Assembly: GCA_964356795.1 (NCBI GenBank)
Contig: CAYHIK010000004.1
Location: forward strand, 2,743-66,742
Length of the DNA stretch: 64,000 bases
Direction of reading: 5' to 3'
Source of the DNA: an uncultured Candidatus Saccharibacteria bacterium
Lineage (GTDB): Bacteria; Patescibacteriota; Minisyncoccia; 2-02-FULL-40-12; GWA2-44-9
Shown here: piece by piece, positions 19,310 to 62,713 of the stretch
Layout of the letters: each line of letters starts with the position of its first letter
Position numbering within the stretch: position 1 is the stretch's first letter
The notes under the pieces: model-generated
Seen by the model: only the letters and a program-made list of their open reading frames with translations
Databases searched by the model: none
Told to the model about the DNA's origin: nothing
Made by a program: the position numbers and the translations under genes

Positions 19310-19483
19310 ATGCGGGCCATACGAATGCCTTCAAGAGACCGACAACTCCCGCGCCAAATGAGCTCGCCTGCCCGATAAAGTATACCGCCGCACCAATAAG
19401 TCCCATCCCATACACCGCGTCTGCAGGATTGTTTTTCATAACTCAGAGTATACCACTTAGGAATCCCAATGTTCAATAAAAAA

Positions 19484-36030: not shown

Positions 36031-36076
36031 TGTCAATAGTACACCTAACACCGTGTGCATAAGTGTACATTTGACA
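36031..36076. promoter_or_regulatory. Candidate operator: 14-bp inverted repeat TGTCAATAGTACAC-N18-GTGTACATTTGACA in the divergent promoter region
   Basis: 12 of 14 arm positions are complementary; lies between the divergent NrtR-like gene and the J-domain/vWA/PurA-like operon. Confidence 0.3.
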
Positions 36077-36106
36077 AGAAGTACCGAGGTGCGGTAGAGT
36101 TATAAT

Positions 36107-37746: not shown

Positions 37747-37848
37747 GCCTCACCTCAGTCAATATTATACCACAATAAATATTTATAGCAACTTCCCCGC
37801 AATAATCTCTTCATTGAAGATGCCGGGCCCAAGTGCTACGCTTGGCCC

Positions 37849-51503: not shown

Positions 51504-51619
51504 ATGTCACAACAAAAAATCTAGCATCCACGACTTCTACTGAAAAATACTAGCATAAACTGCGGAGATTTTCCTTGCTGGCCGCGTGGAACGTAGAGGG
51601 AATGAATTCTTCCTGTCAG

Positions 51620-51655
51620 AAAAAAGAAAAGCGGCCATTGCTGGTCGCTTTCTGC
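51620..51655 (-). terminator. Rho-independent terminator (module shared with 58923-58960)
   Basis: Minus strand gcgaccagcaatggccgc hairpin followed by TTTTCTTTTTTCTG. Confidence 0.5.
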
Positions 51656-51668
51656 ACGAAGGCACTCC

Positions 51669-52037
51669 TTACAGAGGACCACCGGATTCGCGCAGGAATT
51701 CACTCATGAATTCACTCACGCCCTTCGCCCGACGCGCCTGACGCTTGCGTTCGTCGCGTGCCATCTCCTCGTCTGCGAGAGCGGACTTCGGGTAGGGGCC
51801 GATGTTCTTCCTGATGCATCCATCCACCGCCCGTGTCCAATCGCGAAGGATGAGGACGGGATTGGAATCCGAGCGCACACAGACAGTCACGCCGTTGAAC
51901 AGGAATCTGACGGTGCGACTCTTCTTACGCTTCGGCCGCTGCGCCGAAAGCACGATTGCTTCAGCGATGACCTCATGGATGAAGAAGCCACATTTGACAT
52001 CAAAGATGCCATGCTTTTCTCGCACCAAACTTCCCAT
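51669..52037 (-). CDS. Hypothetical protein; paralog of the N-terminal domain of 60915-61706
   Basis: About 45% identity over about 100 aa (GIFDVKCG..IAEAI.LSA...SDSNP.LI.RDW.RA....I.K..GP.PK.AL). Confidence 0.4.
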   Translation of the reverse strand: MGSLVREKHGIFDVKCGFFIHEVIAEAIVLSAQRPKRKKSRTVRFLFNGVTVCVRSDSNPVLILRDWTRAVDGCIRKNIGPYPKSALADEEMARDERKRQARRAKGVSEFMSEFLRESGGPL

Positions 52038-52071
52038 GGTTCCGCTCCTTCTTCAGATTGAAACGTGCGAT

Positions 52072-52263
52072 CTACGAGGCAAACCGCTCCGCGTGCTGCT
52101 TGGCCATCTTCTTGGCATCCTGCTGGCACTTCTTCTTGTCACAGCACCGAATAGCCGAAGAGGCGTTCTTCTTTCTGTAGCAGGCCTCGTGGACGGCGAC
52201 ACCTCCGCAGAACAGGCAGTCATCCTTCTGATACGAAGACTTGGGCCGAATTTTTGGCTCCAT
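52072..52263 (-). CDS. Small Cys-rich basic protein (63 aa)
   Basis: GGAAGGAG RBS then ATG; 7 Cys (CLFCGG...CYRKK...CCDKKKC). Confidence 0.35.
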   Translation of the reverse strand: MEPKIRPKSSYQKDDCLFCGGVAVHEACYRKKNASSAIRCCDKKKCQQDAKKMAKQHAERFAS

Positions 52264-52297
52264 CTCACACTCCTTCCCCAGACTTCGGGGTACTCTT

Positions 52298-52327
52298 AAT
52301 ATGCCATATTAATATGGCATATGTCAA
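52298..52327 (-). promoter_or_regulatory. Promoter-like element with a 20-bp perfect palindrome ATGCCATATTAATATGGCAT next to a TTGACA -35
   Basis: Same architecture as the cassette promoters at 59269-62294; the -10 is weak (CATATT). Confidence 0.35.
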
Positions 52328-52363
52328 GTCTACGGGCGAAGCAGAGAAGACCTGCGGAACGGA

Positions 52364-52699
52364 TTAATTGCCGGGCAGTGCGGTTGGGATGGGTCTCATC
52401 TGAATTGACTGCGCTGTTACGCTACCGTCGGAATTTGTGCTCCCCGTGGCCGTGACCGTTTCGCCTATGTTGAGATCAGCTAGTGAGCCCCTCGTGAACT
52501 TTCCAATCTCGGTTGTGCTGGAATAGAATACAATCTTCGACCCACCACTGCGCATCTTAATGGTGATGCTGGTGTCATCCTTGGAGATAATCTCCCCCGA
52601 AACAAGCCCAGCGCCTGCGCCACCGAGTCGCTGACCATCTCCGCCCCTCAATCCAGCGCCCGCATTTGCGGTGAACTGTTGCCGTTGCTCTGGCGTCAT
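52364..52699 (-). CDS. Hypothetical Gly-rich protein; preceded by an overlapping 38-aa signal-peptide-like ORF (52696-52812), possibly a frameshifted secreted protein
   Basis: The upstream ORF MNKLLSVAVTVAVVVGSGAFYGG... ends in TGA overlapping this ATG (ACATGACG). Confidence 0.35.
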   Translation of the reverse strand: MTPEQRQQFTANAGAGLRGGDGQRLGGAGAGLVSGEIISKDDTSITIKMRSGGSKIVFYSSTTEIGKFTRGSLADLNIGETVTATGSTNSDGSVTAQSIQMRPIPTALPGN

Positions 52700-52822
52700 G
52701 TTGGCAAAATCCGCTCGACTCGAACTACGTCCTTGGGCATCATGCCTCCGTAGAATGCGCCACTCCCGACAACCACCGCAACCGTCACCGCTACTGATAA
52801 AAGTTTGTTCATACTTTTTTTA

Positions 52823-54046
52823 TTATTCGAAACGCAACGCTTCTATGGGATTTAATTTGGACGCCCTGCTGGCAGGGTAGTAGCCAAATACAATACCAAT
52901 AGCAGCTGAAACGCCGAACGCTAATACAATTGAATACAGGGAAACCGAAGTTGCGATGCCCCCAAAATGCGAAACCAATAAACTCACAGCCCACCCGAGC
53001 GCAATTCCCATGACACCTCCGGAGAAAGTCAGCAACACGGCCTCAGCCAAAAACTGGCGATTGATATCTTTACGCTTTGCTCCGATTGCTTTGCGCAAGC
53101 CAATCTCTCGGGTTCTTTCGGTGACGGTGGTGAGCATCATATTCATGATACCAATACCACCCACCACGAGCGAAATACCCGCAACCGCAGCCAAGAGAAT
53201 AGTGAACGTGTCGGTGACCGAAGAAGCCGTCGCTACAATATCTGCCTGGTTGAGCGTGCTGAAGTCCGCCTGCTGGGGATCTGATATGTTATGCCGTTGA
53301 AGCAGGAGTCCGGTAATTTGAGCCTGCAAGTCCGTCATAGAATTCTGGTCAGCTGCCTGAACGCTAATCTGGCTTACCGATGTATTTCCCGCGAGAAATC
53401 GCTGCGCGGTAGCGAGTGGGATGTACACCGAATTATCTGGATTGTTAAATCCACTCCCTCCCTTGGATTTGGTGACCCCAATCACCTTGAACGTAATCGA
53501 GCGGATACGAATCGACTGCCCGATGGGGCTCACCCCTTCACCAAAGAGGTCATCTCTGACCGTTGACCCAAGCACCACCACCTTTGCCAAGCTTCGCGTA
53601 TGTTGATCGCTGATAAATGACCCGTCTTCGATTTCAATATTCCGCACCGTGGAATAATCAGACACCGTTCCAATCACCTGCGTATTGGTATTTGTGCCCC
53701 GAGCGGTGAGTTGGTATCGGCCAGTGAGCTCCGGAGCAACTGCAGCTGCCAAATCTATATCGGTTTTCAGTGCATCGGCATCTTCTTGAGTAAGCGTCTG
53801 CGCACTCCCCCGACCAGCATTCACCTGAATACCGACGCCTCGTTGAGCGCCCGGCATCACAATCACCAAATTAGAACCCAACGATTGGATACTCGCCTCG
53901 ATGGTACCCTTCGCTCCCTGACCAATCGAAATCATGGCGATTACCGAACCAATACCGATAACGATGCCAAGCACCGTAAGGCCGGATCTGGCCTTATTCA
54001 CCAGCAAGGCCGAATATGTTTCTTCAAATAAATCGGAAATAATCAT
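52823..54046 (-). CDS. ABC transporter permease, MacB/FtsX-like
   Basis: 407 aa; N-terminal TM, large periplasmic domain, 3 C-terminal TM (FtsX fold). Confidence 0.8.
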   Translation of the reverse strand: MIISDLFEETYSALLVNKARSGLTVLGIVIGIGSVIAMISIGQGAKGTIEASIQSLGSNLVIVMPGAQRGVGIQVNAGRGSAQTLTQEDADALKTDIDLAAAVAPELTGRYQLTARGTNTNTQVIGTVSDYSTVRNIEIEDGSFISDQHTRSLAKVVVLGSTVRDDLFGEGVSPIGQSIRIRSITFKVIGVTKSKGGSGFNNPDNSVYIPLATAQRFLAGNTSVSQISVQAADQNSMTDLQAQITGLLLQRHNISDPQQADFSTLNQADIVATASSVTDTFTILLAAVAGISLVVGGIGIMNMMLTTVTERTREIGLRKAIGAKRKDINRQFLAEAVLLTFSGGVMGIALGWAVSLLVSHFGGIATSVSLYSIVLAFGVSAAIGIVFGYYPASRASKLNPIEALRFE

Positions 54047-54750
54047 GATAAATTTGCGTGACGCTTATTTTTATTTTTCTTGTCCTCGACAATCAAACCA
54101 TCTTTGATGGTGATGATTCTATCGGCGTGCTCCGCTACCTCGCGCTCATGGGTAATGAGTACGATAGTTCTATGCTGTTTCTCATTCAGTGTCTGGAACG
54201 TATTGAGCACTATTTCTCCCGTTTTTGTATCCAGATTCCCCGTTGGCTCATCAGCTAAAATTAATGCTGGATTATTTACTAACGCTCGAGCGATGGCAAC
54301 ACGTTGAATTTGTCCTCCAGAAAGTTGATTTGATTGATGGTAAAAATGGGACTCATCCATGCCTGCGTTCAGGAGTGCAGCCCGAGCCTTTGCCTCGCGC
54401 TCTTCTTTGGGAATCCCCGCATACACCAATGGAAGCATAACGTTCCGTAGTACGGTAGCTCTTGGTAGCAAGTTGAATGACTGGAACACAAAGCCAAGCT
54501 TATCTTTTCTGGTGTCGGCCAGCTCATCATCGGTCAGATGGGAAACATCATGACCATCCAGCATGTACGTGCCACTTGAAGGAGTATCGAGTGCCCCAAT
54601 GATGTGCATCAGCGTTGATTTCCCCGAGCCAGAAGGGCCCATGATTGCCACGAACTCGCCAGCATTAATTCCAAAACTCACTCCCTTGAGTGCCGTGGTT
54701 TCCACGTCACCGCTTTTGTAGGTTTTGGAAATATTGTTGCACGCAATCAT
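54043..54750 (-). CDS. ABC transporter ATP-binding protein (MacB/LolD-type)
   Basis: Walker A GPSGSGKST, signature LSGGQIQRVAIARAL, Walker B ILADEPTGNLD; start set at MIACNN. Confidence 0.85.
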   Translation of the reverse strand: MIACNNISKTYKSGDVETTALKGVSFGINAGEFVAIMGPSGSGKSTLMHIIGALDTPSSGTYMLDGHDVSHLTDDELADTRKDKLGFVFQSFNLLPRATVLRNVMLPLVYAGIPKEEREAKARAALLNAGMDESHFYHQSNQLSGGQIQRVAIARALVNNPALILADEPTGNLDTKTGEIVLNTFQTLNEKQHRTIVLITHEREVAEHADRIITIKDGLIVEDKKNKNKRHANLS

Positions 54751-54760
54751 CGTGGGCGTA

Positions 54761-56491
54761 TTAACGAACCTGAAGTCCACCCCTTGATCCGCCTCCTGTT
54801 CCCCCGCCAACCGGAAACAAGCTATTTGTCTGAGTTGTAGCGCTTGAAGTGGTCACCGTTCGCACCACCACGATATCCCCCTCATTGAGACCACCCATGA
54901 CCTCGGATACAGAATCATTCACCAAGCCAACTTCAACTAGTTTGCGCTGAGGCGGAGTCCCCAAGGCAACTCCCGAAGCATTCATTGCGCTCGCCACTAG
55001 CTGACTCGCGGCCGCAACATCTCCCGGCATTTCAACGTACCTCGTTTCTCCAGAAGATTTCACTGCCGAATTTGGCACGAGCAACACGTCCTGCTTCGCG
55101 CCCGTAATGACCGCGGCGGATGCACTCATCCCGGGCTTCACCCGTTCGTCTTGGGTATCAAATCCGATACTTACTCCATAGGTAACAACACCCTGGCTTA
55201 CCGTTCCCAAGGGGTCCACCTCTACAACGTTCCCCGTAATCGTTAACTCCTCCACCGCATCAAACGTCAGCGTAACCTTCTGCCCAATCTTCACTTGGGC
55301 AATCTCGACTTCGTTGAGCGATATTTGCGCGATACTTTGCTTTGTGAGCAGCGTCGCAATCACAGTACTACCCGACACTGAATCTCCCGCCTTCATTTCT
55401 GATTTCGCGACAATACCAGCAAACGGAGCGCGAATGACGTAGTTCGCCAAGTTCGCTTGAGCATCTTGGAGCGCAGCCTTTCTTTGAGCGACGGTGTTCT
55501 CCTGACTTCTCATATCAATGGGATTCGTCAGTTGCGTATCATCAAGAGATCTCTGCGATGATTCGATAGCTCGTCGAGCATTCCCCAAGCTTGAAAGGAT
55601 GCTATTCAAGTTGCTCAACGCACTCCCGATACTGTTTTGATAAGTTGTCACCTGCTGAGGTATCCGAGCCGTATCGCCCTGCTTTGACGCTTCACTCTTC
55701 ATATTGCTCACGAGCGCATCGAGCATATTCTGTTCGCTTTTAACGGCCTGCGCTATGAGCTCGGTCGTTTTCTCGGTGGTCTTCAGGACTGCAGTGACTT
55801 CCTCGGGAGAAGCATCAAATCGTAGACTTCTGTAGGTCGTAAAGTTTGGATCAAACGCATCTTTGGCTATTTTGTAATCACTCTCGGATCGAGACGTGAG
55901 AGACCGAAGCTCGTCTCTAAAATCCTGACCGGCTAAATTGCCGTACTCGCACACATTACCGCAACCGCCCGCAGGAGATACCGTGTTGTCATACAACACG
56001 CCTCGCGCCAGCTCCACCACGTTGGGCAAATCAAGGAATGCGTCAGACACCTTATTGTATGCATCGCGATATGATTGCTCGAGACTTTCGACGGTGGTCT
56101 CGGAGCTCACCTGCTGATTGCGCTGCATTTTTTCCAAAGATATCTGCGCGCTCTCAAGACTTATCTGAGCATCTCGGACTGATCGCTGAGCTTCGCGCGC
56201 ATCCAGATAGGCAAGAATCTGACCTCGATAGACCTGTTGTCCGGTTTTAACGCCAACATAGGTAAGCGTCCCGGAAGCCTTCGGTTTTACATCAATCTGC
56301 TGGGAAGCTGCGACCTGACCACTGCCCGTAATTGAGCTGATAATAGTTCCCTTGGTAACAGTCGCTAAGACGTACGTTGCCTCCGCGGTACCGCCTCCAC
56401 GAAAAACAAAGTAGGAACCAAGAACAATCACTGAGAGCACAACGCCCGACACAATCTTCCGCCGTACCATTGTCTGAAGTATATAGTGCAT
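54761..56491 (-). CDS. Periplasmic adaptor (membrane fusion protein, HlyD/MacA-like)
   Basis: N-terminal TM; long coiled-coil hairpin (RSVRDAQISLESAQISLEKMQRN...); lipoyl/beta-barrel-like C-terminus. Confidence 0.7.
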   Translation of the reverse strand: MHYILQTMVRRKIVSGVVLSVIVLGSYFVFRGGGTAEATYVLATVTKGTIISSITGSGQVAASQQIDVKPKASGTLTYVGVKTGQQVYRGQILAYLDAREAQRSVRDAQISLESAQISLEKMQRNQQVSSETTVESLEQSYRDAYNKVSDAFLDLPNVVELARGVLYDNTVSPAGGCGNVCEYGNLAGQDFRDELRSLTSRSESDYKIAKDAFDPNFTTYRSLRFDASPEEVTAVLKTTEKTTELIAQAVKSEQNMLDALVSNMKSEASKQGDTARIPQQVTTYQNSIGSALSNLNSILSSLGNARRAIESSQRSLDDTQLTNPIDMRSQENTVAQRKAALQDAQANLANYVIRAPFAGIVAKSEMKAGDSVSGSTVIATLLTKQSIAQISLNEVEIAQVKIGQKVTLTFDAVEELTITGNVVEVDPLGTVSQGVVTYGVSIGFDTQDERVKPGMSASAAVITGAKQDVLLVPNSAVKSSGETRYVEMPGDVAAASQLVASAMNASGVALGTPPQRKLVEVGLVNDSVSEVMGGLNEGDIVVVRTVTTSSATTQTNSLFPVGGGTGGGSRGGLQVR

Positions 56492-56495
56492 AGAT

Positions 56496-56999
56496 TTATC
56501 TTTGCATGGGTACGCGAGCGGGCTCGCCTCGCTGAAGCGCGGGCGAAGCGGGCATCGGCATGACACGAATAAACTTTGCCTCAATCTGGCCCTGATCATT
56601 TGGCTCACCAATGACAACAATGGGCTCAGTCGGCTTCAAATCTGAGGCCTGAATAGCATCTCGAAATCGTCTAATATCAGTCTCACTCGTTACCGTAATT
56701 ATTTTTTCAATATTATCCTTACCACGAACCACCAATTCAGAATCAGCGATGCTGATAATCTGGCCAAAGGCGCCATGTCCACCAATGAAATCTCCTCCGC
56801 TAAAATCTTGATTCATATTGTTCATGAACCCCGCGCGAGGGCCTGCAAAATTTTTATGATAATTCTCACTCCATGCATATGAGAATCGCGCCTTTCGGTA
56901 GCCAGCTGCCATGCCAACGCTAAAGGTTCCGATTAATATCGCTAACCCGAAGAGTACGAGGATAAGAATCGTTACCTCTTTAGACCGAATAGACTTCAT
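56496..56999 (-). CDS. Membrane-anchored hypothetical protein
   Basis: Start set at MKSIRSKEVTILILVLFGLAIL. Confidence 0.3.
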   Translation of the reverse strand: MKSIRSKEVTILILVLFGLAILIGTFSVGMAAGYRKARFSYAWSENYHKNFAGPRAGFMNNMNQDFSGGDFIGGHGAFGQIISIADSELVVRGKDNIEKIITVTSETDIRRFRDAIQASDLKPTEPIVVIGEPNDQGQIEAKFIRVMPMPASPALQRGEPARVPMQR

Positions 57000-57003
57000 G
57001 ATG

Positions 57004-57414
57004 TTATTTGTATCCATATGTTTGTTTGTGTATTGATTTTGTAATCGCAAGGAATCGCTCCACGGATGCGGCGGCAAGCCTGATGCAGAGCAGGAGAAAT
57101 GCTATTGAGAACAACAATCCCGCAGCTATCATGCCCGGCATGGACTCGAACGTCGCGAATAGAAAACTTTGCCAGTATTTGATAACGATACTCGGATCAG
57201 AAAAGATGAGCGCTACAAACGGTCCAAAGCTAGACTCCGCCAGAACGTGTCGTACGCCTATGAATGCAAATATGGAAAGGACGCAAAATATCACCAAAAG
57301 AGTACTGAAAAACGTTAGATTCCCCCGCACCAATGCCAGCTCCTTTTCAAGCCCCAATCGTTGGATAATCCTTGAAAATAGGTCTTTCGGCTGATTATTG
57401 TTCTCGTCCTGCAT
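57004..57414 (-). CDS. Membrane protein, putative anti-sigma factor
   Basis: 136 aa, 3 TM; immediately downstream of the ECF sigma gene. Confidence 0.3.
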   Translation of the reverse strand: MQDENNNQPKDLFSRIIQRLGLEKELALVRGNLTFFSTLLVIFCVLSIFAFIGVRHVLAESSFGPFVALIFSDPSIVIKYWQSFLFATFESMPGMIAAGLLFSIAFLLLCIRLAAASVERFLAITKSIHKQTYGYK

Positions 57415-57461
57415 ATATACTTATACGAATACGGGGTGCACTTTGGTGCACCCCGTATAAG

Positions 57462-58010
57462 CTAGACGAGTTTCTTGAGGAGGGCGATTGCGCGCCTATA
57501 TCTGCTCTTGATTGTATTGAGTGGCTCATGGAGCCGGGCAGAAATCTCCCTGAAATTTAGTTCACCCTGGGTGTAGAGCTCTACAACGGAGCGATAATTC
57601 TTCGGAAGTTGAGCAACTGCGGTTGCCAATTCGCGATATTGTTGTTGCGCGAATATCTGATCTACAACGGATGGCGCCGTGTCGATGAGCGACTCGCTAA
57701 AATCTTCCTCGCCCCCTAACGCCGAAAATGGCAGAGCTTGTTTCTTCTTGAGCTCATCAATAGCTGTTCGCTGGGCAATTGTGAAAATCCACGTTCGAAA
57801 AGATTTGGCCCGATCAAACTTGGTGAGGTTTTTCCAAACTTTAACAAACACCTCTTGTGTTATATCAGCGGCGACGCTTTGATTTCCGGTATATCGCTTC
57901 GTAAAACCGAATATGAGAGGCATATAGCGCCTCACGAGCTCTTCGAGAGCCTGCTCATGTTTTCCTTCTAGATACTGCCCAACCAGCTGTTCATCGGTAA
58001 AACTGTTCAT
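57462..58010 (-). CDS. RNA polymerase sigma-70 factor, ECF subfamily
   Basis: Region 2 ITQEVFVKVWKN...FRTWIFTIAQRTAID; region 4 NFREISARLHEPLNTIKSRYRRA. Confidence 0.8.
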   Translation of the reverse strand: MNSFTDEQLVGQYLEGKHEQALEELVRRYMPLIFGFTKRYTGNQSVAADITQEVFVKVWKNLTKFDRAKSFRTWIFTIAQRTAIDELKKKQALPFSALGGEEDFSESLIDTAPSVVDQIFAQQQYRELATAVAQLPKNYRSVVELYTQGELNFREISARLHEPLNTIKSRYRRAIALLKKLV

Positions 58011-58056
58011 ACGACAGCCATAGAGTAGCATAAAATACGGAAAATGACAGAGTTAG

Positions 58057-58086
58057 AAAAACCGCCCACATGGGCGGTTTTTCTGT
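58057..58086. terminator. Bidirectional hairpin terminator
   Basis: aaaaccgccca-catg-tgggcggttttt. Confidence 0.55.
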
Positions 58087-58089
58087 GTT

Positions 58090-58153
58090 AGCTGGGGCTC
58101 CTAGACGAAGTTAGAACTATACTACTGGGCGGAATGTCGTCGTTTGCATACCA
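58090..58153. repeat. Conserved about 60-nt cassette motif (copy 1 of 4)
   Basis: agctggggctcctagacgaagttagaactatactactgggcggaatgtcgtcgtttgcatacc; similar copies at 59299, 59992 and 60799. Confidence 0.5.
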
Positions 58154-58162
58154 TTTTGCATT

Positions 58163-58765
58163 CTAATCAGAAGCACTTTGCTTACACGAAAACTCCTCAA
58201 CTTCCGAGTTTCGTATCAAAATCGTCCGGTTGGTCGTAAAGCTGAGACCTTTGTTAGGTTGCGTTTCAAAACCTAGATAGATGCGCTCCACACCCTGACT
58301 GCGCAGTTCTCGTACTGCTGACTGAAGGTCGGAGTCGGAACTGGCAACGATTGCCATTGAGATTGCCTTCTGGCAAGCCAGAGTAATCATGTCAACGGCA
58401 ATACGAACATCTACACCCTTTTCCTTGAATGTGAGTGTCTCGTGGCCCTTGGGACACGTTTCCTTGTGTCCGCGAACATGGCCCGCAAGCACCACCTCAA
58501 ATCCCTGAGCCTCCAAATGTACCTTGAGCAAGCGCTGTTCTTCAATCAGTTCTTTGGACTTCTTTGTCGTCTCCTCGTGTACGGTCAGCTTCCCAAGATA
58601 AAATAGCTTCTTATCAACCGAGATACCGGCAAGCACCTTATTGAGGAGGCTGTTGAAGTCATATTCGGCAAAATCAACTTTCTTTTCTTTGACCCTTTCT
58701 GGGTTCAAAATGAAGCTCATTTTGCTCATCAGATTGCGACCATCAACAAAGAGAATGTTTGGCAT
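58163..58765 (-). CDS. NYN/LabA-like (PIN-fold) domain protein
   Basis: ILFVDGRNL N-terminal Asp motif; later acidic residues (D...D.D). Confidence 0.55.
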   Translation of the reverse strand: MPNILFVDGRNLMSKMSFILNPERVKEKKVDFAEYDFNSLLNKVLAGISVDKKLFYLGKLTVHEETTKKSKELIEEQRLLKVHLEAQGFEVVLAGHVRGHKETCPKGHETLTFKEKGVDVRIAVDMITLACQKAISMAIVASSDSDLQSAVRELRSQGVERIYLGFETQPNKGLSFTTNRTILIRNSEVEEFSCKQSASD

Positions 58766-58922
58766 AAATACGGAAACCCCAGCGGGCCTTGCGGCTGGCT
58801 GGGGCGTTGATGTTTCTATAGTACTCCTATAGGCCCTCGCCTGTCAACACCCCTATTTGAGGCCAATTCTGAACCTTTTTAGAACAATATCAACATCTGT
58901 CCCACCCTGCGTTTTACTATAT

Positions 58923-58960
58923 CAGAAAAAAGAAAGGCGGCCATTACTGGTCGCCTCATT
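58923..58960 (-). terminator. Rho-independent terminator (module shared with 51620-51655)
   Basis: cagaaaaaagaaaggcggccattactggtcgcc nearly matches cagaaaaaagaaaagcggccattgctggtcgc; the stems differ by compensating changes. Confidence 0.5.
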
Positions 58961-58973
58961 TCCTCTCTCCCTG

Positions 58974-59246
58974 TCACCACGAAAGCGGAATCTTGTACTG
59001 ACAGACGACGTGGGGATTGGGAAGAACATCGTCGAAGACGGCATTCGGTGGATGGGCCCAGATTACCTTCTGCTGTTCCCACCGAGCAGTTGCTTCGGCG
59101 ACGAGAACGGCCCACCTTGCCTTCGCCTCCTTGACCGCCCCTTCTTCCGTAGTGGCGCTCAGAAGAATCTGCACCGTTTCGATGTCGTGTACGTTCTCCA
59201 TCCAGTTCTTGGATGTGTACACGAGGTACCATTTTCCACTGTGCAT
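58974..59246 (-). CDS. Hypothetical protein (cassette gene)
   Basis: RBS GGAAGGTGG then ATG (MHSGKWYLVY); own promoter P2 and terminator. Confidence 0.35.
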   Translation of the reverse strand: MHSGKWYLVYTSKNWMENVHDIETVQILLSATTEEGAVKEAKARWAVLVAEATARWEQQKVIWAHPPNAVFDDVLPNPHVVCQYKIPLSW

Positions 59247-59268
59247 AACCACCTTCCCTACAAATATA

Positions 59269-59298
59269 AGCGTACCACATTATTGTGGCATCTGTCAA
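59269..59298 (-). promoter_or_regulatory. Promoter P2: TTGACA–18 bp–TACGCT with palindrome CCACATTATTGTGG in the spacer
   Basis: Read on the minus strand; positioned about 25 bp upstream of the RBS and ATG of gene 58974-59246. Confidence 0.5.
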
Positions 59299-59362
59299 GC
59301 TTGCTGGGGGTACTGGGCGAAGTTAGAACCGCATTGATAGTGGGCGCTTCGTCGTTTGCATT
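59299..59362. repeat. Conserved cassette motif (copy 2)
   Basis: gcttgctgggggtactgggcgaagttagaaccgcattgatagtgggcgcttcgtcgtttgcattgc; the stem gcgaag/cttcgtc covaries with gacgac/gtcgtc in copy 4. Confidence 0.5.
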
Positions 59363-59372
59363 GCAAGTATAG

Positions 59373-59415
59373 CAAAAAGCCAAATGAAAAGGGGCGAATC
59401 TTTCGATTGCCCCTT
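59373..59415 (-). terminator. Rho-independent terminator of gene 59441-59923
   Basis: Minus strand ggggcaatcgaaagattcgcccc followed by TTTTCATTTGGCTTTTTG. Confidence 0.55.
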
Positions 59416-59440
59416 CGGTGAACTGCTTCAAGATGTAGCG

Positions 59441-59923
59441 CTACAAGTCGATGATGTCTTCGTGGCCGTGCATCATCGCCATCGCCATCGCGCCGCTCTT
59501 CATCACGAGACCACCGAGGCCTCGCACCAACTCCCGCACTTCCCTTCCGGTCGCATCGTCGGGAATGGTGGTGCGCAGAGCGATGTCGCCGTATGGGTAG
59601 CCCAGCTCATCGCGAAGCCGTTGCTGCACCTCGGCCTCCGAAGAAGATGAGCTGATGATGTGTCGCGCAGCGACCTCGATTTCGACATCGGTCATCTCGT
59701 CATAGGACTTGTGCCGTGCCACGAGCTCTCCGAGCTGACCGATGAAATCGGCGTGCTTGGCACCAGCGATGACGGCTTCAGCAACCGACAGCGCCTTGCG
59801 CGGGTTCCGCTGGCCCACGAAGGGCATGGAGGGATTTCGACCCCTCGAGTGACACCACTTGGCGTGAGCCACGACTTCTTCGGCGGAACCTTGTGCATGC
59901 TGGGAAAGGGCGTACTTCTTCAC
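59441..59923 (-). CDS. Hypothetical protein (cassette gene), GTG start
   Basis: RBS AAAGGAGG, 6 nt, GTG; 160 aa, no motif. Confidence 0.35.
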   Translation of the reverse strand: MKKYALSQHAQGSAEEVVAHAKWCHSRGRNPSMPFVGQRNPRKALSVAEAVIAGAKHADFIGQLGELVARHKSYDEMTDVEIEVAARHIISSSSSEAEVQQRLRDELGYPYGDIALRTTIPDDATGREVRELVRGLGGLVMKSGAMAMAMMHGHEDIIDL

Positions 59924-59960
59924 GTGTGACCTCCTTTTCCTGCAAAATCAGGATAGTCTA

Positions 59961-59990
59961 ATTATACCATATTTCTATGGTATAAGTCAA
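59961..59990 (-). promoter_or_regulatory. Promoter P3: TTGACT–18 bp–TATAAT with palindrome TATACCATA-gaaa-TATGGTATA in the spacer
   Basis: Minus strand CTTGACTTATACCATAGAAATATGGTATAATTAGAC, then the RBS. Confidence 0.55.
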
Positions 59991-59991
59991 G

Positions 59992-60045
59992 TTAGCTGGC
60001 GCTCCTAGACGACATTAGAACTGCGCTACTCAATGAAGGGGCGAT
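59992..60045. repeat. Conserved cassette motif (copy 3, 3' half diverged)
   Basis: gttagctggcgctcctagacgacattagaactgcgctact... Confidence 0.4.
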
Positions 60046-60095
60046 ATTTGTACTTAGTATAGAAATCCCCCGCCGGTAAAAGCGGGGGTGTGGGA

Positions 60096-60527
60096 TTACG
60101 GAAAGATGGTCTCTCCATTCCACGGACAGTTGGGACACTCCTGCTTGTGGAGCGCCTCGATTTCGGAGAGGTGCGCTGCGATCTCCCTATCGAGGGTGAT
60201 ACATGCCTTGTTGTAGGCATTGCCCGCCTCGTTGTAGGCGGTGCGGGCCTTGTCGAAGGCGGTGTGGGCCTTGTCGAAGGCGGTGTGGGCCTCGTTAAAG
60301 ACGTCGCCTGCCTCGTTGTAGGCGGTGCGGGCCTTGTTGTAGGCGTCGCCTGCCTTCAGCACGGCTTCGGGCAATACACCCTTCACGGGCTGGAAGAGAC
60401 GGATGCGAAGCTCGCGCTCCTCCACGGCCTTCTGCGTGTTGATGTACGCGGCTCGTTCATCGTAACTGTCGCACCATTCGAGAAGTATGAGATGGTGCAC
60501 GTGCCAGAAGAGACCTCTCTGCTTCAT
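60096..60527 (-). CDS. Hypothetical protein; paralog of 44960-45391, containing 7 tandem heptad repeats
   Basis: RBS GGAGGT then ATG; the shared FWHVHH..LLEWC and CPNCPW motifs. Confidence 0.4.
   Translation of the reverse strand: MKQRGLFWHVHHLILLEWCDSYDERAAYINTQKAVEERELRIRLFQPVKGVLPEAVLKAGDAYNKARTAYNEAGDVFNEAHTAFDKAHTAFDKARTAYNEAGNAYNKACITLDREIAAHLSEIEALHKQECPNCPWNGETIFP
60210..60356. repeat. Seven tandem 21-bp repeats inside the CDS (encoding 7-aa A[YF][ND][EK]A[GRH][TDN] repeats)
   Basis: gttgtaggcggtgcgggcctt and variants repeated x7 head-to-tail. Confidence 0.8.
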
Positions 60528-60544
60528 GTGTTACCTCCGATGAG

Positions 60545-60574
60545 AGTATACCACTATATTGTGGTGCGTGTCAA
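60545..60574 (-). promoter_or_regulatory. Promoter P4: TTGACA–18 bp–TATACT with palindrome CCAC-aatatag-TGG in the spacer
   Basis: Minus strand CTTGACACGCACCACAATATAGTGGTATACTCTCATCGGAGGTAACAC-ATG. Confidence 0.5.
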
Positions 60575-60798
60575 GTTTGCTGCACATTCGGCCTACTGGC
60601 CTCAGTACTTCCTCGCTCGCGCTCGGTTGCGGGACTTGGATTCACCGTCGGTCAAGGCGTCGTCAGTCACTCCGCCTCGCCTCACGGCTCCGGCCCTCAC
60701 GGTATCATTTACTAATGATACATCGTTCCGGGCTTCGAATCCAAGCCCTCCATCAACCAGCGAATATAAAACACCCGAAGTGGGTGTTTTATATTCGT
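60571..60798. repeat. Repeat A (about 230 bp): conserved blocks, a 17-nt copy of the tRNA-Gln 3' end, a covarying hairpin and a palindromic terminator
   Basis: About 85-90% identical to 62291-62521 outside two variable hairpins; contains tgcgggacttggattc (the tRNA 3' end) and gaatataaaacacccgaagtgggtgttttatattc. Confidence 0.7.
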
Positions 60799-60862
60799 AG
60801 CTGGGGGTACTAGACGACGTTAGAACTATACTACTGGGCGGAATGTCGTCGTTTGCATACGT
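60799..60862. repeat. Conserved cassette motif (copy 4)
   Basis: agctgggggtactagacgacgttagaactatactactgggcggaatgtcgtcgtttgcatac. Confidence 0.5.
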
Positions 60863-60866
60863 TTTA

Positions 60867-60909
60867 GCATAAAAAAGACCCCGGACAGCGTTGTGTTGCT
60901 GCCGGGGCC
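60867..60909 (-). terminator. Rho-independent terminator of gene 60915-61706
   Basis: Minus strand ggccccggcagcaacacaacgctgtccggggtc followed by TTTTTTATGC. Confidence 0.55.
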
Positions 60910-60914
60910 GTGAC

Positions 60915-61706
60915 TTACTTCGGAGAGATAGACAGGAGTGCGGGATTGAGAACCCCACCCGACTCGTTGGCTTTTTCGCCCTCGTTTCCGAGCTGAGTCT
61001 TGACGTTGTGCCAGCGGCGAAGCTGTTCGCCGTACTTCCAGCACTGCGAGAGCATTGAGACGGCGCATCCGTACATGAAGCCCGTGATGCCCTCGAGGTC
61101 AGCCTCGGAAGATGCTGCGTCCGCAACATCTTCCAGTCTCTTCCCTTGAGCCATCTCGATCTGCATGAGACGCGCCCAACGTTCCGCGTAAGCGAGCACC
61201 GCGCTGCCGTAGCCGTCCTGGTTGCTTTCTCTGAACTTGAGCCAGCCGCGCCAGCCACTCGCGCTCTCAATTGCAAGGCCTGGATCGTTGAGCAGCTTGG
61301 CCTCGACGGCTTCGCGGTGGGCACGAGCCTTCTTCTCGTACTCCGCCCCTCGCCTCTGTCGCTTGCGCTCGTTCTCGGCTTCGATGCGAGCGTCGTTCGC
61401 CTTCTCTGTGTCTGTGAGAGCGGGCTTCGGATGGGGACCAACACTCTTGCCGATGTAGCCACTCAACGCTCGCGACCAGTCGCGGTAGATGAGCTCGGGA
61501 TTGGAGTCCTCGCGCACCGACACGACCACATCGTTGAACTCGAACTTGATGACCCGCTTCTTCTTCGCCGAGAGCGCGATTGCTTCGGCGATGGTCGGCC
61601 CGATACTTGAGCCGCACATCACGTCGTACACGCCACCCTTCTCTCGCCACAGATTCTCCACGTTCTCCTCCCTTTCTCTTTGCTTCTCAGAACTTGGTTG
61701 CCCCAT
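60915..61706 (-). CDS. Hypothetical protein; N-terminal domain paralogous to 51669-52037, basic coiled-coil middle
   Basis: Start set at MGQPSSEKQ (8 bp after the upstream stop); the longer ORF in the track overlaps the 61714-62229 gene. Confidence 0.4.
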   Translation of the reverse strand: MGQPSSEKQREREENVENLWREKGGVYDVMCGSSIGPTIAEAIALSAKKKRVIKFEFNDVVVSVREDSNPELIYRDWSRALSGYIGKSVGPHPKPALTDTEKANDARIEAENERKRQRRGAEYEKKARAHREAVEAKLLNDPGLAIESASGWRGWLKFRESNQDGYGSAVLAYAERWARLMQIEMAQGKRLEDVADAASSEADLEGITGFMYGCAVSMLSQCWKYGEQLRRWHNVKTQLGNEGEKANESGGVLNPALLSISPK

Positions 61707-61713
61707 CGTTGTG

Positions 61714-62229
61714 TCAGTTGACTGAGTGGTGGAGTCCCTCGACTCCGCTGACGAGCCCGTTGCCCGCACTGACTGCACTTGGGGCCCAGCCCTGCCTGAT
61801 GGTGGCGAGCCACTGTTCGTAGGTCGCGCCCATGTCTGCGAAGGCAGGAGCGTTGTTGTCGGCGAGCCAGCGAGCGAGAGCTTCCGGCGTCTCCATGACT
61901 GGAGAAATCGGCGTGCCCTCGGAGGTGGATTCGTACATCTGGTAGTGAGTGCGCTCCGCCTCCGGCCAATCCGGCATGGAGTCTTCCTTCTTAGGAATGG
62001 GGCCGTTCTCCTCTTCGAAGGTCCTACCGTCGGTCGAAGCGTCACGAGGCACGAAGCTGGGCGGTTGCGTTGCGTAGCTGAGCTCGTTACCCAGGGCCCA
62101 CTGACACGCTTCGATCTTGTAGGCTTCGAGCCTCTCCTTGAAGCTGTCGCTCAACAGCGGAATGAAGTAGCCCCTCGCGTCCCTGGGATGCTCCCAGTTC
62201 GCGGAAACTCTGCGAACTTCTCTGCTCAT
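61714..62229 (-). CDS. Hypothetical protein (cassette gene)
   Basis: RBS AGGAGG then ATG (MSREVRRV); 171 aa. Confidence 0.35.
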   Translation of the reverse strand: MSREVRRVSANWEHPRDARGYFIPLLSDSFKERLEAYKIEACQWALGNELSYATQPPSFVPRDASTDGRTFEEENGPIPKKEDSMPDWPEAERTHYQMYESTSEGTPISPVMETPEALARWLADNNAPAFADMGATYEQWLATIRQGWAPSAVSAGNGLVSGVEGLHHSVN

Positions 62230-62264
62230 CTCGACCTCCTTGTAGTGTCAAGAACTCAAACAAT

Positions 62265-62294
62265 AGCATACCACATTTATATGGAATAAGTCAA
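62265..62294 (-). promoter_or_regulatory. Promoter P5: TTGACT–18 bp–TATGCT with a partial palindrome CCATATAAATGTGG
   Basis: Minus strand CTTGACTTATTCCATATAAATGTGGTATGCT, about 30 bp upstream of the RBS. Confidence 0.5.
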
Positions 62295-62521
62295 GTTTGC
62301 TGCACATTCAGTCTGCTAGCCTCAGTACTTCCTCGCTCGCGCTCGGTCGCGGGGCTTGGATTCACCCGCCACTCTCGATGCCACCAGTCGTGGCATCTCG
62401 GTTCTGGGCTCCGGCCCTCACGGCCACATCAGCTGATGTGGCATCGTTCCGGGCTTCGAATCCAAGCCCTCCATCAAACAGCGAATATAAAACACCCGAA
62501 GTGGGTGTTTTATATTCGTAG
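62291..62521. repeat. Repeat B (about 230 bp), abutting the 3' end of tRNA-Gln
   Basis: See repeat A; contains gcggggcttggattcacc (tRNA 3'-end-like) and the covarying hairpin ccacatc-agc-tgatgtgg, where A has tatcatt-tact-aatgata. Confidence 0.7.
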
Positions 62522-62592
62522 CTGCGGGACTTGGATTCGAACCAAGATAGGCGGATCCAAAATCCGCAGTCCTACCATTAGACGACCCCGCA
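62522..62592 (-). tRNA. tRNA-Gln (anticodon UUG)
   Basis: Minus strand TGCGGGG-TC-GTCT-AATGGTA-GGAC-T-GCGGA-TTTTGGA-TCCGC-CTAT-CTTGG-TTCGAAT-CCAAG-TCCCGCA-G. U1:A72 as in bacterial tRNA-Gln; T-loop TTCGAAT; anticodon loop with U33 then UUG. Confidence 0.8.
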
Positions 62593-62713
62593 ATGTCCTA
62601 CCATTAGACCCGCCTCGACTTGACGTCTTCGGCGAGGCGGGCGATCCCGCAATGTGAAATACTAACGGGGAAATAATACAGGAAAAATAGGTTTATGTCG
62701 ACTTTTCGAAGAT

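What the first reader, a model, noticed from the sequence alone, without database searches (positions are those of the whole stretch)
59961..59990. Cassette promoters carry a conserved palindrome inside the -35/-10 spacer, a putative shared operator
Five promoters, read on the minus strand, have TTGAC(A/T) and a TATAAT-like hexamer separated by 18 bp that contain an inverted repeat of consensus tAtaCCAca-(4-6)-tGTGGtAta. They are P1 52298-52327, P2 59269-59298, P3 59961-59990, P4 60545-60574 and P5 62265-62294.

The palindrome ranges from a 20-bp perfect one (ATGCCATATTAATATGGCAT, P1) to the 9+9 TATACCATA/TATGGTATA of P3. A palindrome overlapping the spacer and -10 is the classic position for a repressor, so these cassette genes are probably co-regulated by one dimeric DNA-binding protein. 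That protein might be the adjacent ECF sigma/anti-sigma pair or an unlinked regulator.
Basis: seen in the sequence. Interest (0 to 1): 0.55.

Follow-up and report, generated by a model that had tools for sequence, protein, structure and literature searches.

The report
Palindrome-bearing promoters of mobile gene cassettes
Five strong promoters in a gene-cassette island beside a tRNA gene of an uncultured groundwater bacterium share a real, non-random palindrome that probably binds one repressor, but half of it is the organism's ordinary promoter signal and no regulator could be found.

Summary
TTGACW-N4-CCAYA-N4-DRTGG-(T/C)AnnnT, with an 18-nt spacer, occurs exactly five times, all on the minus strand at the stated coordinates. 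About 0.03 are expected by chance, and no other site comes within one mismatch.

The window is chromosome from a groundwater Parcubacteria (Patescibacteria) MAG. The five promoters head small terminator-bounded cassettes in an ~11-kb island downstream of tRNA-Gln. The cassettes are separated by a conserved ~75-nt module that ends like the tRNA 3' end. One cargo protein has a Tad4 (anti-Thoeris) domain.

The right arm, TRTGG before the -10, is the genome's ordinary extended -10. It occurs at other promoter-like sites without the left arm, so only CCAYA at about -26 to -22 is cassette-specific.

- Both arms are invariant while the bases between them have diverged.
- Mirror symmetry is 5-9 of 9 positions, against 1-2 of 9 in two control promoters.
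- The motif recurs in related cassettes from other metagenomes and upstream of an ABC-exporter gene in several Parcubacteria.

A shared dimeric repressor is the best reading (about 0.45) but is unproven. Pfam finds no regulator in the window beyond NrtR and two ECF sigmas. The ECF pair is not a credible binder. P5 cannot form a hairpin, which argues against a structural role.

The parts
52298..52327 (-). Promoter P1. TTGACA, 18-nt spacer, CATATT. Contains the perfect 20-bp palindrome ATGCCATATTAATATGGCAT (core 52304-52317).
   Evidence: 9/9 mirror positions; DNA hairpin -7.8 kcal/mol, z -3.6
59269..59298 (-). Promoter P2. TTGACA, 18-nt spacer, TACGCT. Dyad core CCACA-ATAA-TGTGG at 59275-59288.
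   Evidence: 6/9
59961..59990 (-). Promoter P3, the finding's coordinates. TTGACT, 18-nt spacer, TATAAT. Dyad TATACCATA-GAAA-TATGGTATA (core 59967-59980).
   Evidence: 9/9
60545..60574 (-). Promoter P4. TTGACA, 18-nt spacer, TATACT. Dyad core CCACA-ATAT-AGTGG at 60551-60564.
   Evidence: 5/9
62265..62294 (-). Promoter P5. TTGACT, 18-nt spacer, TATGCT. Both half-sites are near consensus (CCATA-TAAA-TGTGG, core 62271-62284) but do not complement each other well.
   Evidence: 6/9; no stable hairpin
62521..62592 (-). tRNA-Gln(UUG), the anchor of the cassette island.
62300..62520 (-). Terminator-like hairpin T1 plus a ~180-nt highly structured element. It contains a copy of the tRNA T-arm/acceptor 3' part (gaatccaagccccgcgacc) and abuts P5.
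   Evidence: (z -7.0)
60580..60795 (-). Second copy of T1 plus the structured element, abutting P4. The flanks are near-identical to the first copy, and the hairpin stems are exchanged with compensatory changes.
60796..60870 (-). Cassette 3' module 'D6-D4' (~75 nt; ...ATGCAAACGACGACATTCCGCCCAGTAGTATAGTTCTAACGTCGTCTAGTACCCCCAGCTA). It ends like the tRNA-Gln 3' end and is followed by the same T1 hairpin.
59991..60054 (-). D6-D4 module directly abutting the -35 of P3.
59299..59362 (-). D6-D4 module directly abutting the -35 of P2.
58087..58161 (-). D6-D4 module after the NYN gene. It is followed by a terminator and the ECF-sigma/efflux operon, not by a palindromic promoter.
61714..62229 (-). P5 cassette, gene 1 (171 aa, no family hit).
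60915..61661 (-). P5 cassette, gene 2 (248 aa). The C-terminal domain matches PF25186 Tad4, a Thoeris inhibitor family.
   Evidence: (E 1.4e-30)
60096..60527 (-). P4 cassette gene (143 aa, internal 21-nt / 7-aa tandem repeats).
59441..59923 (-). P3 cassette gene (160 aa, no family hit).
58974..59246 (-). P2 cassette gene (90 aa, no family hit).
51669..52263 (-). P1 cassette. A 63-aa Cys-rich basic protein (52072-52263) plus a 122-aa protein (51669-52037) that resembles, by eye, the N-terminal half of the Tad4-like protein.
   Evidence: (translations; similarity judged by reading, no alignment run)
37764..37774 (-). Control: TGTGG-TATAAT extended -10 without the CCAYA left arm. A similar intergenic site lies at 19447-19457.

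Best explanation
The five sites are sigma-70/sigma-A-type promoters with an 18-nt spacer and a TRTGG extended -10. Each starts a small cassette that ends in a terminator, in a tRNA-Gln-linked island of a Parcubacteria chromosome.

Embedded in each promoter is a dyad, tATrCCAyA-N4-TrTGGyAT, centred near -19.5. Its right arm doubles as the extended -10 and the start of the -10 hexamer. The most likely function is an operator. A dimeric DNA-binding protein would sit over the spacer and the -10 and block RNA polymerase, so the cassette genes would be repressed together. The same would apply to an ABC-exporter operon that carries the motif in related genomes.

Shown: the motif, its geometry, its specificity to these promoters, its conservation, and its recurrence in relatives. 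Inferred: that a protein binds it, that the protein is a dimer, and that the effect is repression. The protein is unidentified. It is either encoded outside the window or is a small protein with no recognised family.
For: - Five of five sites, against 0.03 expected by chance.
- CTTGAC, CCA, A, TGG and -10 positions 2 and 6 are invariant across P1-P5 plus two sites from other metagenomes (L078, L101). Spacer positions 1-4, most of the central N4 and everything outside the promoter vary.
- Outer-arm positions, which are not needed for promoter function, mirror the -10 in 15 of 24 cases. The background among 90 unrelated database hits to the same pattern is about 34% (P = 0.004).
- The other strong promoters in the window lack the left arm.
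- P5 keeps both half-sites near consensus but cannot form a hairpin, and P4 only weakly. This fits sequence-specific recognition of duplex DNA rather than selection for base-pairing.
- L078, found through a protein homologue and not through the motif, has the same 3' module followed by TTGACATATGCCATAGAAATATGGTATATT.
- ABC-exporter orthologues were fetched by protein identity. At 73% identity the full motif is kept. At 61% and 48% they keep CCCATA-N4-TATG. At 44% it is lost.
- The position over the spacer and -10 is the classical place for steric repression (established knowledge).
Against: - No candidate regulator was found. About 70 ORFs were scanned, and only NrtR and two ECF sigmas were detected.
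- The right arm is explained by ordinary promoter function (the GT-rich element upstream of -12 in T4 early promoters, PMC1524935). Only 5-9 bp are unexplained.
- In the more distant ABC orthologues the final G of the right arm is not kept, which breaks strict symmetry.
- Some variants change both arms in a compensating way: GGTACC/GGTACC in L159 and G-C in P1. That pattern is equally expected for a hairpin or for regulators of differing specificity.
- Most extra instances from the metagenome scan were found using the motif itself.
- There are no expression or binding data.
Confidence: 0.45

Rival explanations
1. There is no dedicated regulator. The whole 30-bp unit is a strong promoter module inherited with a family of mobile cassettes. 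The right arm is the extended -10. The left arm is kept for a reason tied to promoter strength or DNA shape, such as spacer geometry or supercoiling-dependent cruciform behaviour, or simply by recent common descent and gene conversion.
For: - The promoters sit at the 5' boundary of each cassette, immediately after the conserved 3' module of the previous one.
- The same composite (module plus promoter) occurs in metagenomes with GC from 37% to 52% (L078, L101), as expected for a module that moves horizontally.
- TRTGG-TAnnnT is generic in this genome.
- A T4-like phage contig (L152) has two early-type promoters matching the same pattern.
Against: - Neutral descent does not explain why CCA.A stays invariant while neighbouring bases have diverged.
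- No RNA polymerase contact is known to read sequence at -26 to -22 (established knowledge).
- A polymerase-contact element has no reason to be the exact reverse complement of the extended -10.
- Close homologues of the cargo gene in other contexts (L017, L018, L080, L240) have good sigma-70 promoters without it.
Confidence: 0.22
2. The palindrome works as a hairpin or cruciform in single-stranded DNA or RNA. It could be a recognition structure for the machinery that moves the cassettes (a tyrosine or Y1 recombinase, integron-like or IS200-like), or a barrier to read-through from the upstream cassette.
For: - It lies within about 10 nt of the cassette junction (...CAGCTAAC|TTGAC).
- P1, P3 and L078 fold into 10-bp hairpins with z from -3.6 to -4.8.
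- Y/R covaries in 5 of 6 sites in the sample not chosen by motif (T-A three times, C-G twice, T-G once).
- Compensated outer-arm variants exist (L159, P1).
- The structured element upstream of P5 carries two more hairpins with similar arms, ATGCCAC/GTGGCAT.
- A Y1 transposase or an integrase lies next to homologous cargo genes elsewhere (L080, L018).
Against: - P5 does not fold (z +0.3) and P4 folds only weakly, yet both keep the half-site sequences.
- The arms are conserved in sequence, not just in pairing.
- The motif also heads a syntenic chromosomal ABC-exporter operon that is not a cassette.
- No recombinase is encoded in the island.
- The stems are AT-rich and are not followed by a T-run, so they make poor terminators.
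Confidence: 0.15
3. It is the site of a MerR-type activator that binds a dyad in an over-long spacer and realigns the -35 and -10 elements.
For: The dyad lies inside a spacer longer than the 17-bp optimum. It has a 4-bp centre like the mer operator, 7-4-7 (recalled from memory, not tested here).
Against: - The spacer is 18 nt, not 19-20.
- The dyad centre is 11 nt from the -35 and 7 nt from the -10, so it is offset and overlaps the -10.
- The TG extended -10 should make the promoter active without help.
- No MerR-family gene is present in the window.
Confidence: 0.06

Closest known systems
Repressor operators embedded in strong promoters of mobile-element accessory or anti-defence operons, for example Aca1-bound inverted repeats in anti-CRISPR promoters and KorA/KorB operators of IncP plasmids (recalled from the literature, not tested here)
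   Same: The same dyad is repeated in several strong sigma-70 promoters of one mobile region. It overlaps the -10 or the spacer. The cargo includes an anti-defence-like gene, a Tad4-domain protein.
   Different: No HTH or RHH repressor gene lies in or next to the operons. The host is a Patescibacteria chromosome. One half-site coincides with the extended -10 element.
Extended -10 ('TRTGn', -16 region) promoters of Gram-positive bacteria and of T4-type phage early genes
   Same: The right arm W-R-T-G-G immediately 5' of TAnnnT matches this element. It occurs in other promoters in the window without the left arm. A GT-rich stretch upstream of -12 is described for T4 early promoters (PMC1524935).
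   Different: This element is asymmetric. It does not account for the conserved CCAYA at -26 to -22 or for the mirror symmetry.
Tandem accretion of integrative elements at a tRNA gene, including integrase-less derivatives (CIME-like elements, satellite arrays)
   Same: The island starts at tRNA-Gln. The units are separated by repeats that end like the tRNA 3' end (...CCCCAGCTA against ...CCCGCAGCTA). One repeat is followed by exactly the sequence that follows the tRNA.
   Different: The units are very small, 0.6-1.7 kb. Each has its own promoter and terminator, and there is no integrase in the window. The ~75-nt repeat resembles the tRNA 3' end only weakly beyond its last ~10 nt and a T-loop-like GTTCTAAC.
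MerR-family operator/promoters
   Same: A dyad with a 4-bp centre lies between the -35 and -10 of a promoter with a longer-than-optimal spacer.
   Different: The spacer is 18 nt, not 19-20. The dyad is off-centre and overlaps the -10. An extended -10 is present. No MerR gene was found.

Membership tests
Sigma-70/sigma-A promoter with extended -10 | -35 hexamer close to TTGACA and -10 hexamer TAnnnT (or close to it), separated by 16-19 nt | tested here: met
   TTGAC(A/T) in 5/5. The -10 hexamers are TATAAT, TATACT, TATGCT, TACGCT and CATATT. Every spacer is 18 nt.
Sigma-70/sigma-A promoter with extended -10 | TG at -15/-14 (TRTGn) | tested here: met
   The promoter scan flags 'TG before the second hexamer' for P1, P3, P4 and P5. 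P2 was not called at this alignment, but its sequence shows TGTGG before TACGCT.
Sigma-70/sigma-A promoter with extended -10 | Correct orientation and distance to a gene start with a ribosome-binding site | tested here: met
   The -10 ends 18-38 nt upstream of ATG/GTG starts preceded by GGAGG-like sequences.
Sigma-70/sigma-A promoter with extended -10 | Mapped transcription start | not testable with these tools
   No transcript data are available.
Dyad-symmetric repressor operator shared by a regulon | Inverted repeat with fixed arm spacing at a fixed position relative to the core promoter elements | tested here: met
   CCAYA-N4-DRTGG always starts 4 nt after the -35 and ends at the -10.
Dyad-symmetric repressor operator shared by a regulon | Arms conserved and centre free, in paralogous and orthologous promoters | tested here: met
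   for the paralogues. for ABC-exporter orthologues fetched without using the motif: the left arm and TRTG are kept down to 48% protein identity, the last G is not kept, and the motif is lost at 44%.
Dyad-symmetric repressor operator shared by a regulon | A cognate DNA-binding protein is encoded, often nearby or autoregulated | tested here: not met
   Pfam/NCBIfam/PADLOC/PHROGs scans of the cassette proteins and Pfam scans of about 70 window ORFs found only NrtR and two ECF sigmas. The rest of the genome could not be searched.
Dyad-symmetric repressor operator shared by a regulon | Demonstrated binding and repression | not testable with these tools
   Needs EMSA, DAP-seq or reporter assays.
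MerR-type promoter | 19-20-bp spacer with the dyad centred in it; merR-like gene present | tested here: not met
   The spacer is 18 nt. The dyad centre is 11 nt from the -35 and 7 nt from the -10. No MerR domain was found in the window.
   The sequences are TTGACA/TATAAT type with a dyad.
Integron attC site | Imperfect 57-141-nt hairpin with R''/L''-L'/R' boxes at the 3' end of promoterless cassettes; an intI integrase | tested here: not met
   The cassettes carry their own promoters. The 3' module is conserved in sequence and has only a 6-bp stem. No integrase is present in the window.
IS circle or tandem junction promoter (-35 in one terminal repeat, -10 in the other) | The homology boundary between neighbouring units falls between the two arms | tested here: not met
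   The repeats upstream of P4 and P5 are identical up to TTGAC and diverge from there. The 3' module ends at ...CAGCTA(AC), before TTGAC, and can be followed by unrelated sequence. The whole promoter therefore belongs to the downstream unit.
tRNA-linked array of integrative elements | Direct repeats of the tRNA 3' part bounding each unit | tested here: inconclusive
   gaatccaag(c/t)cccgc copies lie at about 62355 and 60635. The D6-D4 modules end ...CCCCAGCTA like the tRNA. The overall alignment to the tRNA is weak.
tRNA-linked array of integrative elements | A site-specific recombinase | tested here: not met
   None in the window or in 6.8 kb beyond it. Integrase and Y1 transposase genes were seen only next to homologous cargo genes in other genomes.

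The most novel reading that the evidence does not exclude
The palindromic promoter and the ~75-nt 3' module together define an undescribed family of promoter-carrying, recombinase-less gene cassettes in Patescibacteria. In this reading the cassettes accumulate next to a tRNA gene and spread between genomes of very different GC content. They carry anti-defence-like cargo, here a Tad4-domain protein. The dyad would be the control site through which a host or helper-element protein switches the whole cassette set on or off, or mobilises it.
Probability: 0.2. Interest if true: 0.7.

Novelty: new member of a known kind. Interest (0 to 1): 0.42.

Why it matters
I found no published work on gene regulation in Patescibacteria promoters in two literature searches. 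These bacteria are uncultured, have small genomes and, to my knowledge, few recognisable regulators.

A well-defined cis-element shared by several accessory-gene promoters, and by an ABC-exporter operon in related genomes, gives a concrete handle for finding a regulator by DAP-seq or pull-down with a 30-mer. It also allows a regulon to be defined.

The surrounding island is a compact example of how these organisms collect small, individually expressed cargo genes, including an anti-defence homologue, next to a tRNA gene.

If the dyad turns out to be only a promoter-strength feature, the finding is ordinary.

Tried and rejected
1. **ECF sigma/anti-sigma as the binder.** Rejected. The promoters are TTGACA/TATAAT type, and sigma factors do not bind dyads.
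2. **A general feature of this organism's promoters.** Rejected. Nine other TTGAC-N16-19-TAnnnT promoters in the window lack CCAYA-N4-TRTGG, and only the right arm recurs elsewhere.
3. **A widespread motif.** The motif pattern gave only single hits in IMG/VR and GTDB species genomes (15 and 57). In the metagenome scan (119 or more hits) only one locus, L152, had two. Across 90 sequence families there is no Y/R covariation (P = 0.28), and outer-arm complementarity is 32-36%. The wider database therefore shows no general palindrome tendency.
4. **A motif tied to the cargo gene.** Rejected. Tad4-like homologues at 68-74% identity (L017, L018, L080, L240) have ordinary promoters. Only L078, which also has the 3' module, carries the motif.
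5. **IS junction promoter and integron attC models.** The boundaries and features do not fit.
6. **Antisense promoter from the left arm.** The antisense hexamer always ends in G, forced by the C of TTGAC. It therefore lacks the critical -7 T (read directly from the sequences).
7. **NrdR box.** It has similar CAC/GTG arms and an AT-rich centre, but is 4-8-4 as I recall it, against 4-6-4 here, and belongs to a different regulon. This rests on memory only.
8. **Restriction-type site CCA-N8-TGG.** I recall no enzyme with this spacing, and nothing explains a promoter-only location.
9. **The 3' module in viral contigs.** There were 30 hits, almost all unrelated coding sequence.
10. **Rfam.** Only the tRNA was found.
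11. **Strain variation.** The other assemblies of the locus (L016, L120) are 99.9% identical or more, with no cassette gain or loss.
12. **Literature searches.** Nothing was found on Patescibacteria promoter palindromes.

Full report
**1. Observation**

Reading the minus strand at the five stated positions shows the following:

| Site | Coordinates | Sequence |
|---|---|---|
| P1 | 52298-52327 | TTGACA-TATGCCATATTAATATGG-CATATT |
| P2 | 59269-59298 | TTGACA-GATGCCACAATAATGTGG-TACGCT |
| P3 | 59961-59990 | TTGACT-TATACCATAGAAATATGG-TATAAT |
| P4 | 60545-60574 | TTGACA-CGCACCACAATATAGTGG-TATACT |
| P5 | 62265-62294 | TTGACT-TATTCCATATAAATGTGG-TATGCT |

- The consensus promoter scan lists P1, P3, P4 and P5 with 18-nt spacers and a TG before the -10. 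It did not call P2 at this alignment, but regex scans recover P2 in the same register.
- TTGACWNNNNCCAYANNNNDRTGG, allowing up to one mismatch, matches only these five places in 64 kb. Shuffles give a mean of 0.03.
- Over 9+9 arms, the mirror matches are 9, 6, 9, 5 and 6 of 9. Two other 18-nt-spacer promoters in the window score 1 and 2.

**2. Context**

The window is a bacterial chromosome. Pfam finds RNase Y, MnmA, PurA, MgsA, dUTPase and similar housekeeping genes.

An exact-protein look-up places the locus in a Hainich H41 groundwater assembly. Homologues of one cassette protein are annotated as Parcubacteria or Patescibacteria.

The five promoters lie in an ~11-kb island downstream of tRNA-Gln (62521-62592, minus strand). 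Read along the minus strand, the island has this order:

1. tRNA-Gln.
2. Hairpin T1 plus a ~180-nt very stable structured element (z -7).
3. P5, driving a 171-aa gene and a 248-aa gene with a Tad4 domain (PF25186, E 1.4e-30).
4. A terminator plus a ~75-nt conserved module that I call D6-D4.
5. A second copy of T1 plus the structured element.
6. P4, driving a 143-aa gene.
7. D6-D4.
8. P3, driving a 160-aa gene.
9. D6-D4.
10. P2, driving a 90-aa gene.
11. A degenerate D4 (judged by eye).
12. A NYN-domain gene with its own promoter.
13. D6-D4.
14. An operon of ECF sigma, anti-sigma, HlyD, ABC, FtsX and DUF5666.
15. A D4-like sequence.
16. P1, driving a 63-aa and a 122-aa gene.
17. A D4-like remnant (judged by eye).

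D6-D4 ends ...CCCCAGCTA, like the tRNA (...CCCGCAGCTA). At 60796 it is followed by exactly the sequence that follows the tRNA. Different things can follow D6-D4: a palindromic promoter, T1, or a terminator plus the ECF operon. Its right end is therefore a unit boundary, and the whole promoter from TTGAC onward belongs to the downstream cassette.

No recombinase is present in the window or in the 6.8 kb beyond its end.

**3. What the two arms are**

The right arm, W-R-T-G-G directly before TAnnnT, is an extended -10. The same element stands before TATAAT or TATACT at 37774 and 19457, both intergenic, and at 48356. None of these has a left arm. A GT-rich stretch 5' of -12 is also described for T4 early promoters (PMC1524935).

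Only CCAYA at about -26 to -22, plus the tAT before it, is specific to these promoters. None of the other nine TTGAC-N16-19-TAnnnT matches in the window has it.

**4. Evidence that the left arm is functional**

- I aligned P1-P5 with two sites from other metagenomes (L078, L101). The invariant columns are CTTGAC, CCA, A, TGG, -10 positions 2 and 6, and one central A. Spacer positions 1-4, most of the centre and both flanks vary.
- The outer-arm positions mirror the first four bases of the -10 in 15 of 24 cases. The background is about 34% among 90 unrelated database families that match the same pattern (P = 0.004).
- L078 was reached through a 75%-identical homologue of the Tad4-like protein, not through the motif. 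It has terminator, then D6-D4, then TTGACATATGCCATAGAAATATGGTATATT.
- L101 (GC 37%) has the same composite in front of a 76-aa gene.
- The metagenome scan turned up a set of Parcubacteria contigs in which the motif heads a 583-aa ABC exporter behind a ~200-nt leader (L068, L117, L124, L186, L190, L191).
- To avoid circularity, I fetched exporter orthologues by protein identity:

| Protein identity | Spacer sequence |
|---|---|
| 73% | full motif |
| 61% | CCCATA-ATAG-TATGC |
| 48% | CCCATA-GTAA-TATGA |
| 44% | motif lost |

. The left arm and TRTG are therefore under constraint. The last G of the right arm, the 'n' of TGn, is not.

**5. Operator or hairpin?**

For a hairpin:
- As single-stranded DNA, P1, P3 and L078 form 10-bp hairpins (z -3.6 to -4.8).
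- Y/R covaries in 5 of 6 sites in the sample not chosen by motif.
- Some variants have compensated outer arms (L159 AGGTACCACA-GAAA-TGTGGTACCT; P1 G-C).

Against a hairpin:
- P2 folds moderately and P4 weakly, and P5 does not fold (z +0.3). All three keep near-consensus half-sites.
- Arm sequence is conserved, not only pairing.
- The motif also occurs at a non-cassette chromosomal operon.

The balance favours recognition of duplex DNA by a symmetric protein. A site centred near -19.5 that covers the extended -10 and the start of the -10 would block polymerase, so repression is the likely effect. A MerR-type mechanism is unlikely: the spacer is 18 nt, the dyad is off-centre, and there is a TG extended -10.

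**6. The regulator**

Pfam, PHROGs, NCBIfam and PADLOC gave no DNA-binding domain in any cassette protein. In the rest of the window there is only NrtR (36107-36802) and two ECF sigmas. NrtR's own promoter carries a different dyad, TACCG-N5-CGGTA.

The regulator, if there is one, is unlinked or unrecognisable.

**7. Wider distribution**

- The motif pattern gave only single, scattered hits in IMG/VR (15 hits) and in 185,579 GTDB species genomes (57 hits). The clustered arrangement is therefore rare and lineage-specific.
- Homologues of the Tad4-like protein are abundant in CPR metagenomes (989 hits). They sit in other mobile contexts: next to tRNA-Val (L017), next to an integrase and between inverted repeats (L018), and next to a Y1 transposase (L080). 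All of these have ordinary promoters. The dyad travels with the D6-D4 cassette type, not with the cargo gene.
- A T4-like phage contig (L152) has two promoters of the same pattern before its DNA methylase and Hsp20/DNA-polymerase gene blocks. Similar dyads can therefore arise in other strong extended -10 promoters.

**8. Verdict**

- The feature is real.
A shared operator is the best explanation (about 0.45), with three qualifications. One arm is ordinary promoter sequence, the suggested ECF regulator does not fit, and no regulator is identified.
- The rivals are a mobile strong-promoter module without a dedicated regulator (about 0.22), a hairpin tied to cassette mobility or read-through control (about 0.15), and a MerR-type activator (about 0.06).
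- As an operator in a promoter spacer, it is a new member of a known kind.
- The cassette island around it may be the more unusual feature. It has promoter-bearing mini-units separated by a conserved module that ends like a tRNA 3' end, and the same composite occurs in genomes of 37-52% GC.

Noticed in passing
window 51575-62592 (minus strand): An ~11-kb island downstream of tRNA-Gln holds seven units. Each ends in a terminator plus a conserved ~75-nt module (D6-D4: 58087-58161, 59299-59362, 59991-60054, 60796-60870). Degenerate copies lie near 58860-58900, 52330-52350 and 51575-51595. The module ends like the tRNA 3' end. The same module plus the palindromic promoter occurs in L078 (twice) and in L101 (GC 37%).
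   Followed up: partly
window 62300-62520 and 60580-60795 (minus strand): There are two copies of a hairpin plus a ~180-nt very stable structured element (RNA fold z -7). Their flanks are nearly identical. The two internal hairpins have exchanged stem sequences while keeping pairing (GCCACATCAGCTGATGTGGC against GTATCATTAGTAAATGATAC). The long stem pairs GGGCTTGGATTC with a copy of the tRNA T-arm 3' half. In the P5 copy the hairpin arms (ATGCCAC/GTGGCAT) resemble the promoter dyad. There is no Rfam match.
   Followed up: partly
window 60915-61661 (minus strand); 51669-52037: A 248-aa protein carries a C-terminal Tad4 domain (Thoeris inhibitor, PF25186; E 1.4e-30). It is encoded in a CPR chromosome and has 989 homologues, mostly in CPR metagenomes. 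Its N-terminal half looks similar, by eye, to the 122-aa protein of the P1 cassette.
   Followed up: partly
window 62596-62620 (minus strand): Just upstream of tRNA-Gln there is a partial copy of the tRNA 5' half (ggcgggtctaatggtaggaca). This suggests an earlier rearrangement at this tRNA.
   Followed up: no
L117 9712-9940; also L068, L124, L186, L190, L191, L232, L234, L236: In several Parcubacteria a conserved ABC exporter (~580 aa) sits behind a ~200-nt leader. The leader encodes a short peptide (for example MKPNKFVPNNISTGIFCAPVFVRNKK) followed by a terminator-like hairpin, which looks like leader-peptide attenuation. In most loci the upstream gene encodes a 275-279-aa protein with a weak Mrr-type nuclease hit and an N-terminus that looks like an ATP-cone by eye.
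   Followed up: partly
window 48363-51503 (minus strand): A 1046-aa protein with two C-terminal cyclic-nucleotide-binding domains hits Pycsar effector models through those domains. It lies immediately downstream of the island.
   Followed up: no
window 36071-36100 (+) and 36107-36802 (+): The promoter of an NrtR (Nudix-related regulator) gene carries a different dyad, TACCG-N5-CGGTA, in its 18-nt spacer. This is probably its autoregulatory site.
   Followed up: no
window 58818-58847 (minus strand): The promoter of the NYN-domain gene inside the island also has an 18-nt spacer. It carries an unrelated 8-bp palindrome, CCTATAGG, at nearly the same position.
   Followed up: no
L018 9760-9870 and 10840-10925: In another Parcubacteria genome the Tad4-like gene lies next to a tyrosine integrase. 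It is flanked by inverted repeats running from about 20 nt up to perhaps 60 nt (gtaaaaaactttcggatttctc / gagaaatccgaaagttttttac). This suggests a different, possibly invertible or transposable, context.
   Followed up: no
window 60185-60373: Six or more tandem 21-nt repeats lie inside the P4 cassette gene. They encode repeated 7-residue units (…AYNKART/AYNEAGD/AFDKAHT…).
   Followed up: no
L152 6068-6098 and 12129-12159 (minus strand): A T4-like phage contig (GC 33%) has two promoters, CTTGACAA(A/G)TACCAYAT..ATRTGGTATAAT, matching the same dyad pattern. Their Y/R changes compensate, and their centres are reverse complements of each other.
   Followed up: partly
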